A stretch of DNA of 64,000 bases from Callorhinchus milii (taxonomy: Eukaryota). The DNA lies in contig NW_024704743.1 in the NCBI RefSeq assembly GCF_018977255.1, forward strand, positions 8,930,001 through 8,994,000, read 5' to 3'. Position 1 is the first letter of the stretch. Every line of letters begins with the position of its first letter. Positions 60,927 through 63,880 of this stretch are shown here, one piece after another. A program made the translations under genes and the position numbers. The notes under the pieces were generated by a model, which did not search any database, was not told where the DNA came from, and saw only the letters and a program-made list of their open reading frames with translations.

Positions 60927-61999
60927 ATGTAGCAATATGATGTTGGAAGCCCAGATTTGCTTCCTGCTCTACATTATGCTTGCCCATATACAGAACACTG
61001 CATTTGGTTGTTTTACTCAATATCATTAAAGATCTGCTTGCACGAATTTAATAGTAACTTTAAATATGGCTTGTTCAAAAACTCCAGTCCTGAGAGCTTT
61101 GAGTGGACCTCACACAGCAGGGGGGTACAGTGCAATTGATAACCATCACATTTATACTACTTTAGTGCAAATGACATTGAACTTGAAACTACTACACTAG
61201 GCCCAGTGTAACTCATCAAAATCATGATAATTTGTTGGCAAACATGAAGTCCAGTATGAACAAAATGAGAACAATCTCTGCAAAGGAATATGACCTAAAT
61301 CCATACATTTCCTTATATCTTTTATAGCTGCTATTTGGTGCAGAACACCAGGAATTGGAACATTTGGTGCATCTGGAAAATCTCAGAAAATGCTGTAAGT
61401 ATTTGTATTTCTAGCCAGAGATCTTTGCTTTGGAGTAGTTCCATAGGCTTTTATTTTATGGACTCTAGACTGTTGCTCCTTCATTGCAACCTAGAACTTC
61501 CTGTCTCCAATCCTTTATTTAGTTGAACTTTTCTTCTATGTAAATGCAATAATCCTTACATTTGATACAGTGTCTTTCACGTCAGAAAGATATATAAAAG
61601 CATTTCCCAGGATGTAAATTAATAATCCTTTCATTCAACATAGCACCTTATCATTTCGTTGAGACATCTCAAAACCCTTCACAGAACAAAGTGTAGTGAC
61701 TGGGTGTATTTTGTGGGTGAACTTGGCAGCAAAATGGGGCACAGCAATGTCCCACAAACAGCCAAGGAGCGAGTGACCAATTTTATTTGGGGGTTTGTTG
61801 GCTAGGACGCTGGAGAAACTCTCTTATAGAGCTTTAATATATAACTACCCGTTGCAGCTTCGCTTATAACCAAAGGATCCAATATGGAATGTAGATTGAT
61901 ACACATGCAGACACACAGACAAACATTTTGTCTTTATAGATACTCAGCTGGGAGGACTCCTGGGGGAGGACTCCTTTTGGGAGAACTCAGGGGAGGTGG

Positions 62000-63233
62000 C
62001 TACGATGAATTGATGGCAGAGATCTTTTGTACGTAGAAGGATGTTGTAATCGTCTTCACATTGCATCAACCTGTGTGCATAAAAAGCCAAGCAGACACCT
62101 TTTGTCAGGCTTTGACTGTCCAGTGCTGAGATTTGTTTGCCATAATATAATACTAATAATAATAATAATCCTTGCATTTGAATTAGTGCTTTTCATGTCT
62201 TCTAGATGTCTAAAAGCACTTCACAGAATATACTGTAAAGTGAATTGACTGTATATTTGTGGGTGAAACACAGCAGCCACTGAGCTACAAGACTCCACAT
62301 CTGGAAATGGTAGCCACCTTCATCATGTGGATATAAGATTGGGTTCTGGAGGGCATTGTATGCCCTGTTAGTCTCACATACTTGTTTGAATTTATTGATT
62401 TGATGCTGCAACACAATGTCGCTTACCATGTACTTCACCCACAATCTGGATGGCTGCTTCGTCAGTAGTTGGTGCATTATACCTACCTTCGCTCATGATG
62501 GCCAGCAGGTGTCTTGTCTGCATGGATGATTATTCTATATTCTTCTGCAGTCATTCTTTCCATTGCAGACACGGAGCTCGTGACGTATGTGAACTGTTGT
62601 GAAGCATTTCTTGCAGATTTAGTATGACAGCTTTGTTCAACCCCAGAACATTGCTTCAACACTGCATGGCTTGTTCTTCTCAGTTCGTCATGAAGTAGAC
62701 CTGTAAGAATTTTGGCGACTCATTAGGCAAATGTTTAAAGATCCTGATAAGTGATACACTTTGCCTTACACTTTATATATTGGCATATAGCCTGGCTCTT
62801 TAATTTCTCTAGTTGCTCCAAAAGAGGTCACCTGGAAACATGAATTGTATTTCCTAATGTTTGCTAGAAAAGGCTAGAATCACTTGATGTGCCATCCAGC
62901 AGACTTTTCAGGGATTCAGGTGGCTCTGTGAGCAACACATAGAAAGAACTTCTTTTGCCCATTTCTTGGCTCCACAATGGGCACAACCGTTTGACATACT
63001 CCAATATGATGGGCGCCGTCTGATTCGAAGTCTCTGCCTGGATCATTGTTGAGCGCAACTAAATGGAGTGACCTCTGCTGCTGGGCATCATTTTGCTGTG
63101 CTTTTGCATCTTTTTCAGCATTCAAGTCCAGCCATGCTGTTCTTTGTTCTTCAGTTTCATTTAATCGGCCTTCTTTCTTTTGTCTTGCATTTTTATTTGT
63201 CCTTCAAAAGCTTGATTTTCCCTTCTTAGGCAT
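62000..63233 (-). pseudogene. Helitron Rep/helicase N-terminal region, disrupted by frameshifts, stops and a SINE
   Basis: Manual translation from ATG 63233: MPKKGKSS..ETEEQR..IG/MSNGCAHCGAKKWAKEVLSMCCSQ/EPPESLKSLLDG..F/LANIRKYNSCFQVTSFGA..KV*GKVYHLSGSL/PKFLQVYFM..HADKTPAGHHERR/YNAPTTDEAAIQIVGE..DIVL..ETNRAYNALQNPIL..GYHF [SINE] AFYAHRLMQ..NILLR..LCHQFIV. These motifs are in the canonical order of animal Helitron RepHel upstream of the Rep core. Confidence 0.9.
62143..62296 (-). mobile_element. Family A SINE, internally deleted, inserted in the Helitron ORF
   Basis: First ~20 nt of head (GGAGTCTTGTAGCTCAGTGG) joined directly to the Deu end and tail. Confidence 0.85.
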
Positions 63234-63262
63234 CTTCCCTTAAGATTAAGAAAATGTGCTAT

Positions 63263-63387
63263 TGGGAGGACTCGTGTGGGAGGACTCCTGTTGGGAGGAC
63301 TGAGTGGGAAAACTCAGTGGAAGGACTCCTGTCGGTAGGACTTAGAGGGAGGACTCCTGGTTGGGAGGACTCCTGTTGGGAGGACTG
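63263..63387. repeat. GGGAGGACTCCTG-type minisatellite, ~9 units (3-4 more at 61950-61996)
   Basis: Direct reading of 13-16 bp units. Confidence 0.9.
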
Positions 63388-63880
63388 TAGCTCCCATGAC
63401 AATCTGAAAAAACTGACATACATTTGTTGCAGAATATATTATTATAGATATATCTCTTTAGAAGGGTGTGTACTTTCCTCTGTCTTGACTTTGTTGCAGA
63501 ATACCATGCATACCTCATATTTTGGGGCTTAATTAAACTGTTTTTTAAATATAGCTCATCAATGATAGAAGATCTCAGAAAAAAAGCCCATGCCACTTCT
63601 CCATGCAAGACCTTTCAGATGAGATATAAATCATGTCTCTACATCAATCGGTTATTGTGTTATTGGCAAAAACACAGACACAGACATACACACACAGACA
63701 CTTTGTCCTTATTAGTACAGATGATAATATAACTTTAATTATCATGTTGGTAGACACATGTAACAGTACATGTGATACGAGTTTATAGTGGAGCTCAGTT
63801 TAGGGATGTTTTCTATCTGGGACATTGCTTTAAGAAAATTGGCTGCTGTGTTTGCCTTCAAATTACAGCCATTGCACTGA

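What the first reader, a model, noticed from the sequence alone, without database searches (positions are those of the whole stretch)
61845..63721. Hidden Helitron RepHel fossil in a LINE/SINE-dominated genome
Seen: about 350 codons of Helitron-type protein can be reassembled across frameshifts on the minus strand, including the Zn-finger CxxCxAxKW..MCC, NIRKYNSCFQVTSFGA, GKVYH, YNAPT, DIVL, GYHF and HQFIV. The ORF track shows only uninformative pieces. The ORF stops just before the Rep catalytic core, and the helicase is absent. Known: Helitrons are patchily distributed in vertebrates and have documented horizontal transfers. Inference: this may be an uncatalogued family, possibly of horizontal origin.
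Basis: partly seen in the sequence, partly recalled or inferred. Interest (0 to 1): 0.7.

Follow-up and report, generated by a model that had tools for sequence, protein, structure and literature searches.

The report
Decayed rolling-circle transposon (Helitron) remnant
This is a dead, internally deleted copy of an old multi-copy rolling-circle transposon (Helitron) in what is probably a chimaera (ghost-shark) genome; such elements are already catalogued in cartilaginous fishes and no horizontal-transfer donor was found, so it is ordinary.

Summary
On the minus strand, 63233-62001 encodes residues 1-387 of a ~1,460-aa Helitron1 RepHel protein (44% identity, about 8 frameshifts and 5 stops), split by a SINE. 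The Rep catalytic motifs and helicase are absent. The limits 63721 (A|TC) and 61845 (TAG|T) align with the ends of intact relatives; the 3' hairpin looks CpG-decayed. The last 96 bp start with a second 5'-end motif, so the copy looks composite. Public runs of three labelled organisms hold many copies about 13-15% diverged, as much within as between organisms: an old burst, inherited since. The SINEs point to a holocephalan host (inferred). Repbase already lists Helitron-1_CM (elephant shark) and two skate families, per a paper's supplement. I could not compare sequences, so identity is untested (~55%). The best of 297 relatives is only 45% identical, the tree position is unresolved, and grouping with frog/lizard Helitrons is rejected. 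Horizontal origin is possible but has no donor. Verdict: a real, ordinary fossil of a known kind.

The parts
61845..63721 (-). Whole non-autonomous, internally deleted Helitron1-derived element (1,877 bp with the nested SINE), between an A and a T
63670..63721 (-). 5' terminus: A|TC start, A-rich stretch, TG-rich microsatellite, as in intact relatives
   Evidence: sequence; alignment with 5'-type motifs of L002, L006, L026, L050, L057, L071
63262..63387 (-). 14/15-nt minisatellite block upstream of the start codon
   Evidence: TRF period 15, 8.7 copies; family D1
62297..63233 (-). Decayed RepHel ORF, part 1: start codon, charged STPR-like stretch, zinc-finger-like CxxC..CC, NIRKYNS block, YNAPT, GYHF
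   Evidence: STPRs PF21107 E 8.6e-4, below the curated cut-off
62932..62985 (-). CxxC...CC zinc-finger-like motif of the RepHel N-terminus
62143..62296 (-). Nested SINE, internally deleted: ~19 nt of tRNA-derived head joined to the ~137-nt shared tail
62001..62142 (-). Decayed RepHel ORF, part 2, ending at HQFIV (first ~28 residues of Helitron_like_N); breakpoint of the internal deletion
61949..61993 (-). Second copy of the minisatellite block (87% to 63263-63307), fused to the ORF breakpoint; shared by many other copies
   Evidence: (D2); other letter at 61963 in 51-97 contigs per run
61845..61940 (-). 96-bp terminal module: second A|TC 5'-end motif plus 3' end; a mini-Helitron or an acquired terminal module
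   Evidence: score 33 against the 5' end, 0 of 2,473 window tiles as high; 85% over 40 nt to the start of L026, E 0.001
61845..61868 (-). 3' terminus: decayed hairpin around GCGAAGC and terminal GTAG|T in place of CTAG|T
   Evidence: aligns with 3' ends of 9 intact relatives; no significant fold on its own (z 0.38)

Best explanation
A dead, non-autonomous deletion derivative of an animal Helitron1 (HLE1) family that amplified long ago in a chimaera-like lineage, probably the family Repbase calls Helitron-1_CM or a sister of it. Mechanism: an autonomous master made RepHel; the HUH nuclease nicks at the 5' TC, the Pif1 helicase displaces one strand up to the hairpin-CTAG signal, and the strand inserts between A and T with no target duplication (established Helitron1 biology; PMC11417382, PMC2997563). 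This copy lost everything from just inside Helitron_like_N to the end of the helicase but kept both cis ends, so it could be moved in trans (inferred). Its 3' end comes from a 96-bp module with its own 5'-type start, as expected of composite or end-bypass transposition (inferred; precedent PMC4224331). After insertion it decayed (about 8 frameshifts, 5 stops, CpG loss in the hairpin) and received a SINE (shown). It has no present coding function. Shown: homology, truncation, ends like relatives' ends, many related copies in four runs, copy-specific decay. Inferred: host taxon (~85%), identity with Helitron-1_CM (~55%), age, trans-mobilisation.
For: Homology and truncation. Ends. Multi-copy: summed contig depth over single-copy depth in X1 is about 13-62 on ORF bins, ~2,200 on a 5' bin and ~3,300 on the 3' bin; X8 3-21, ~400, ~720; X13 4-28, ~460, ~560; X14 0-9, ~140, ~210 (unit depths chosen by me, order of magnitude only). 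Old and shared: 26 of the 32 listed pieces lie on the element and differ from this copy by 12.9% (X1, the best holder), 12.9% (X8), 14.4% (X13), 15.2% (X14), while X8's contig on the unique flank shows 9 listed substitutions in ~170 nt. Decay is copy-specific: the majority letters of other copies change 20 codons, 15 toward the residue of 60 intact relatives, 3 away, 2 silent; other copies carry extra bases at 62874, 62731 and 62584-62592, near three frameshifts. Host: tRNA-headed SINEs, one with a TGC (Ala) anticodon loop, 34 tail matches in 64 kb, fitting tRNA-Ala CmiSINEs and ~521,000 SINE copies in C. milii (PMC5499810); contig totals 0.89-1.05 Gb for X1, X8, X13 fit ~1-Gb holocephalan assemblies (PMC12952989). 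Catalogue.
Against: No genome is held: no direct copy count, consensus or empty site. The 3' end reads GTAG, not CTRR, and the hairpin is not a significant fold. No host gene was found among 130 ORFs scanned, so the taxon rests on SINEs and genome size. The second SINE head read TGT, not TGC. The CORE-like segment behind the SINE head is recalled, not tested.
Confidence: 0.85

Rival explanations
1. The family entered the chimaera lineage by horizontal transfer from an invertebrate, independently of skate and tetrapod Helitrons, then burst and was inherited. This concerns origin only and is compatible with the best explanation.
For: Nearest named relatives are invertebrate (spider, rotifers, hookworms, mites, Hydra, octopus). 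A clade with Anolis and Ascaphus proteins is rejected (AU p=0.0002). Copies differ by only ~13-15%, i.e. one amplification wave. PMC9004415 found no Helitron fossils older than the amphibian/amniote split. Transfers of Helitrons into vertebrates are documented (PMC2997563, PMC12001565).
Against: No donor: best 45% protein among 297, 67% DNA over 368 nt among 80 loci. The fossil sits on a long branch (0.66-0.81) with no supported sister in four trees. Skate, ray and shark HLE1 elements exist and were not in my trees. The AU group was named after I had seen earlier trees, and non-monophyly also follows from old paralogous lineages.
Confidence: 0.45
2. Vertical descent from a Helitron1 lineage already present in the ancestor of cartilaginous fishes, with a later revival in chimaeras.
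For: HLE1 families are listed for elephant shark and thorny skate, and found in 4 of 8 elasmobranch genomes. PMC4350176 treats Helitrons as present in most vertebrates and lost in birds. The long isolated branch fits long separate descent.
Against: Untested, since no elasmobranch sequence was obtained. Elasmobranch presence is uneven: 1 copy in white shark, none detected in 4 of 8.
Confidence: 0.4
3. A family distinct from Helitron-1_CM and absent from Repbase/Dfam (for example confined to another chimaera family).
For: Host species not determined; no close protein in 15 billion-scale collections; nothing like it in this scan's earlier notes.
Against: Only one C. milii Helitron protein is listed (2 rows, Rep and Hel) in a genome poor in DNA transposons (PMC6817897), and this family is abundant in four runs. 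Decayed families are not expected in predicted-protein collections.
Confidence: 0.45
4. A domesticated host gene made from the RepHel N-terminus.
For: The kept part begins at the start codon and includes a zinc-finger-like motif.
Against: About 8 frameshifts, 5 stops and a SINE inside the frame; this copy's own changes hit residues kept in 88-100% of relatives at 8 codons; CpG observed/expected 0.36 against 0.34 for the window.
Confidence: 0.02

Closest known systems
Helitron1 / HLE1, animal clade (intact examples P0012, P0014 Centruroides, P0189; HELIANO subgroup f is the likely place, untested)
   Same: Collinear RepHel N-terminus (41-45% identity), 5' TC, A|T site, 3' hairpin-type end, microsatellite behind the 5' end, excess of ends over coding parts.
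   Different: No Rep motifs or helicase; frame broken; terminal CTAG reads GTAG; second 5'-type motif 96 bp from the 3' end; no relative above 45% blastp identity.
Repbase Helitron-1_CM (Callorhinchus milii)
   Same: Same class (HLE1) and, by inference, same host group.
   Different: The Repbase entry has Rep and Hel; this copy has neither. Sequence identity not testable here: only the name was seen, in a supplement table.
Repbase Helitron-1_AmRa and Helitron-2_AmRa (Amblyraja radiata) and HELIANO HLE1 of skates and rays
   Same: HLE1 in cartilaginous fishes.
   Different: Elasmobranch hosts; sequences not obtained; relationship unknown.
Horizontally transferred families Heligloria (PMC2997563) and Heli1Xen1 (PMC12001565)
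   Same: Helitron1 in vertebrates, spread mostly as non-autonomous copies.
   Different: Those show 80-98% DNA identity across distant hosts, or transfer within ~11 My; here no distant host exceeds 67% over 368 nt.
Composite Helitrons such as HelibatN539 (PMC4224331)
   Same: 5' end of one unit combined with the 3' end of a downstream unit.
   Different: No captured host gene seen here; the parent arrangement was not observed.

Membership tests
Helitron1 (HLE1) | Homology to RepHel | tested here: met
   Residues 1-387 of P0012, 44%
Helitron1 (HLE1) | 5' TC terminus | tested here: met
   TC at 63721; aligns with 5'-type motifs of 6 relative loci
Helitron1 (HLE1) | Insertion between A and T | tested here: met
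   A at 63722 and T at 61844 on the minus strand; empty site not seen
Helitron1 (HLE1) | Subterminal 3' hairpin | tested here: inconclusive
   No significant fold (z 0.38; 126 of 200 shuffles as good), but aligns with hairpins of 9 relatives, differences at CpG sites
Helitron1 (HLE1) | 3' CTRR terminus | tested here: not met
   Reads GTAG|T, one base from CTAG|T and in register with relatives. Filed as a decayed derivative, not an intact member
Helitron1 (HLE1) | Dispersed multi-copy family with non-autonomous excess | tested here: met
   Many distinct contigs in 4 of 4 runs laid, ends far deeper than ORF; rough; 0 further copies in this window
Autonomous Helitron1 | HUH Rep catalytic motifs | tested here: not met
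   Homology ends ~80 residues before the Rep match
Autonomous Helitron1 | Pif1 helicase | tested here: not met
   No hit for P0012 residues 388-1460 in the window at E<=0.01
Autonomous Helitron1 | Open reading frame | tested here: not met
   8 frameshifts, 5 stops, nested SINE
HLE2 / Helentron | Short terminal inverted repeats and T|T insertion | tested here: not met
   None of 18 inverted pairs joins the two ends; site is A|T
Helitron-1_CM (Repbase) | >=80% identity to the consensus at ends and inside | not testable with these tools
   No Repbase/Dfam; only the name seen
Helitron-1_CM (Repbase) | Host is C. milii or a holocephalan | tested here: inconclusive
Horizontally transferred Helitron (PMC2997563 criteria) | >80% DNA identity over >400 bp to an element of a distant host | tested here: not met
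   Best 67% over 368 nt among 80 metagenome loci; eukaryote assemblies not searchable, so not a full test

The most novel reading that the evidence does not exclude
An uncatalogued, deep-branching Helitron1 lineage with no close relative in current protein collections that jumped from an unsampled invertebrate into chimaeras, independently of skate and tetrapod Helitrons, and spread as thousands of short composite copies built on a 96-bp mini-Helitron: a datable DNA-transposon invasion of one of the slowest-evolving, most DNA-transposon-poor vertebrate genomes.
Probability: 0.2. Interest if true: 0.4.

Novelty: already known. Interest (0 to 1): 0.18.

Why it matters
Little as it stands: Helitron1 elements are on record in elephant shark, skates and rays, and deleted non-autonomous copies are their usual form. 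The label 'already known' refers to the kind and its presence in this lineage; whether this exact family is catalogued is untested (~55% yes). If the novel case held, it would add one dated invasion of a retroelement-dominated vertebrate genome, and the shared copies could serve as presence/absence markers and a neutral clock for chimaera phylogeny.

Tried and rejected
Own-genome search: no genome held. RNA evidence: no RNA holder listed, no evidence either way; small word shares of runs X5-X20 were not used except for X8, X13 and X14, which were laid. Bin 63666-63756 shows almost no cover because the tool skips the repeat there: not read as absence. Pfam on the fossil's pieces: only a sub-threshold STPRs match; the HQFIV piece did not hit Helitron_like_N. 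Host exons: none among 130 ORFs scanned, of 252 listed as mostly unique; only 3 RVT_1 pieces. ARAGORN found 0 tRNAs; Rfam found 2 SINE heads. Fragment alignments A2 and A3 were misaligned and dropped. Locus scans with A4 did not run; the viral collection was not scanned. The 88-row careful tree did not finish, so its quick tree was read; 4 near-duplicate rows were left out there, and rows for searches were picked by score or by having a name. The quick tree's grouping with the Araneus protein (SH 95) was not recovered and is rejected. A 13-nt inverted repeat at the deletion junction (I13) may be chance; not pursued. Without the TG microsatellite, the likeness of the two 5'-type motifs is weaker (9 of 2,473 tiles as high). 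Earlier scan notes: 3 look-ups, nothing. Paper searches found no paper describing a chimaera Helitron family or its transfer; the library lacks most subscription papers and Repbase Reports. Supplements of PMC5499810 (SINE consensus) could not be read and bear on the host call; figures (PMC4350176 Fig. 3, PMC11417382 Fig. 8) were not visible.

Full report
Observation. One unbroken-frame piece of 45 residues (62870-62736, one stop read as X) matched 16 of 20 candidates among 5.8 billion proteins, best E 7.6e-12. Full-length hits P0012, P0014 and P0015 carry Helitron_like_N and PIF1. tblastn laid P0012 residues 1-387 of 1,460 on 63233-62001 and found nothing for the rest anywhere in the window at E<=0.01. 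A frameshift-aware alignment with the SINE left out gave 156 of 358 identical, 8 frameshifts and 5 stops. The fossil keeps about 28 residues of Helitron_like_N and ends about 80 residues before the Rep motifs.

Anatomy. The element starts with TC after an A at 63721 and ends TAG before a T at 61845. I fetched 80 metagenome loci of intact relatives. The window's 5' end aligns with 5'-type motifs of six of them. Its 3' end aligns with nine 3' ends, with C-to-T and G-to-A differences at the hairpin's CpG sites, six bases missing and GTAG for CTAG. These loci were picked by a motif scan of my own. On its own the hairpin does not fold better than shuffles (z 0.38). A 14/15-nt minisatellite lies before the start codon (63262-63387) and again right after the ORF breakpoint (61949-61993, 87% alike). 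At 61940 a second A|TC motif begins. It matches the 5' end better than any of 2,473 window tiles (9 tiles do as well without the microsatellite) and matches the start of locus L026 at 85% over 40 nt. The last 96 bp thus look like a mini-Helitron or an acquired terminal module, as in the composite bat elements of PMC4224331 (passages read). The nested SINE is about 19 nt of head joined to a tail.

Family. No genome is held and the window has no second copy. I laid contigs of four public runs at 80% likeness: X1 (organism A, best holder, possibly the source), X8 (B), X13 (C) and X14 (no label). Summed depth over single-copy depth is about 13-62 on ORF bins, 2,200 on a 5' bin and 3,300 on the 3' bin in X1, with the same shape at lower values in the other three. 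The tool warns that this is not copy number, and I chose the unit depths, so read it as tens of coding remnants and hundreds to thousands of ends. Of 32 listed pieces, 26 lie on the element (6 SINE or flank rows dropped). They differ from this copy by 12.9% (X1), 12.9% (X8), 14.4% (X13) and 15.2% (X14). X8's one contig on the unique flank shows 9 listed substitutions in about 170 nt, a lower bound of about 5%. So the copies differ as much within organism A as between organisms, and the burst probably predates their split (inference). No listed piece spans an insertion junction in B or C, so orthology of this insertion is not shown. Of 40 variant rows shown (of 714), 22 fall in the ORF region and 21 in my nine pieces. 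They change 20 codons: 15 toward the residue of 60 intact relatives (8 to a residue kept in 88-100%), 3 away, 2 silent. Other copies have extra bases near three frameshifts. The lesions are therefore this copy's own, and the master was coding. Half of 13-15% at the rate of 1.0-1.1e-3 per site per My in PMC5499810 gives roughly 60-75 My. This is uncorrected and censored at 80% identity; the slower rate quoted in that paper would give over 400 My.

Host. No host gene was found among 130 ORFs scanned. The SINE heads are tRNA-derived; one has a TGC (Ala) loop, the other TGT. Tails match 34 times in 64 kb. PMC5499810 (parts 1-2 of 6 read; supplement unavailable) describes tRNA-Ala CmiSINEs absent from the shark and skate genomes tested, and 302,861 plus 218,294 SINE copies in C. 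milii: about one per 1.9 kb on a ~1-Gb assembly (PMC12952989, passages). Contig totals of X1, X8 and X13 are 0.89-1.05 Gb. A CORE-like segment behind the head is my recall, not a test. I put a holocephalan host at about 85%; the species is not determined.

Relatives and origin. A no-index search found 351 representatives at E<=0.001, none under 1e-30; a profile search added full-length proteins. Of 297 proteins hit, the best are 45% identical by blastp and 53% over aligned columns. Named ones come from spiders, mites, scorpions, rotifers, hookworms, insects, Hydra, octopus, a frog (Ascaphus) and a lizard (Anolis). In four trees the fossil has a long branch (0.66-0.81) and no supported sister. 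A clade with the frog and lizard proteins is rejected (AU p=0.0002; group named after earlier trees were seen). The best DNA match among the 80 loci is 67% over 368 nt. Published transfers show 80-98% (PMC2997563, parts 1-2 of 5 read) or dates under 11 My (PMC12001565, abstract and passages). Recent transfer from a sampled donor is thus not supported. An old transfer (~45%) and vertical descent within cartilaginous fishes (~40%) cannot be told apart without skate sequences. PMC9004415 (passages) found no Helitron fossils older than the amphibian/amniote split, which leans weakly to later entry.

What is known. PMC11417382 (passages, section 23, supplement searches and part 1 of 111) defines HLE1 by 5' TC, 3' hairpin with CTRR and A|T insertion. 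Its Table S1 lists Repbase Helitron-1_CM from C. milii with Rep and Hel, and Helitron-1/2_AmRa from thorny skate. Its Table S10 reports HLE1 in 4 of 8 chondrichthyan genomes (11,154; 4,818; 1,651; 1 copies); no holocephalan was among the 8. PMC4350176 (passages and section 16) names birds as the lineage that lost Helitrons. PMC6817897 (passages) notes very few DNA transposons in elephant shark. I saw only the name Helitron-1_CM; a full-text search for it found no main text. I put identity with it at about 55%. Ten searches found no paper on a chimaera Helitron family or its transfer, within a library that lacks most subscription papers.

Verdict. It is a real, dead, internally deleted and probably composite Helitron1 derivative from an old multi-copy family. 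It works like any non-autonomous Helitron1. It fails the tests for an autonomous member and the literal CTRR test, so I file it as a decayed derivative. The kind and its presence in cartilaginous fishes are known; family-level novelty and horizontal origin remain open. Interest 0.18.

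Noticed in passing
window 61845-61940 (-): A 96-bp module with its own A|TC 5'-type start and the 3' end; the deepest-covered bin lying wholly in Helitron-derived DNA in all four runs, so perhaps a free-standing mini-Helitron family.
   Followed up: partly
window 62143-62296 (-): The nested SINE is a head-tail fusion lacking its middle; a full-length relative lies at 44463-44790.
   Followed up: partly
window 1-2500: About 2.5 kb of strongly skewed simple repeats (GC 0.74, GC skew -0.54, AT skew 0.77 in the first 2 kb) giving long spurious ORFs.
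   Followed up: no
window 4097-4429 (-), 19884-21069 (-), 26015-26656 (+), 50100-50741 (+), 54342-55322 (+): LINE reverse-transcriptase remnants; three pieces hit RVT_1; CR1/L2 labels are recalled.
   Followed up: no
L026:4 and 389; L002:337 and 466: Two intact relatives also show two 5'-type motifs in tandem upstream of the ORF, so doubled 5' ends occur in this clade.
   Followed up: no
window 61994-62006 and 62307-62319: A 13-nt inverted repeat with one arm at the deletion breakpoint (I13); template switch or chance.
   Followed up: no
proteins P0220, P0171, P0230, P0243, P0254, P0195, P0203: Anolis and Ascaphus Helitron proteins form a clade (SH 98) next to hookworm (Ancylostoma) proteins; a possible parasite-linked transfer, unrelated to this window.
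   Followed up: no
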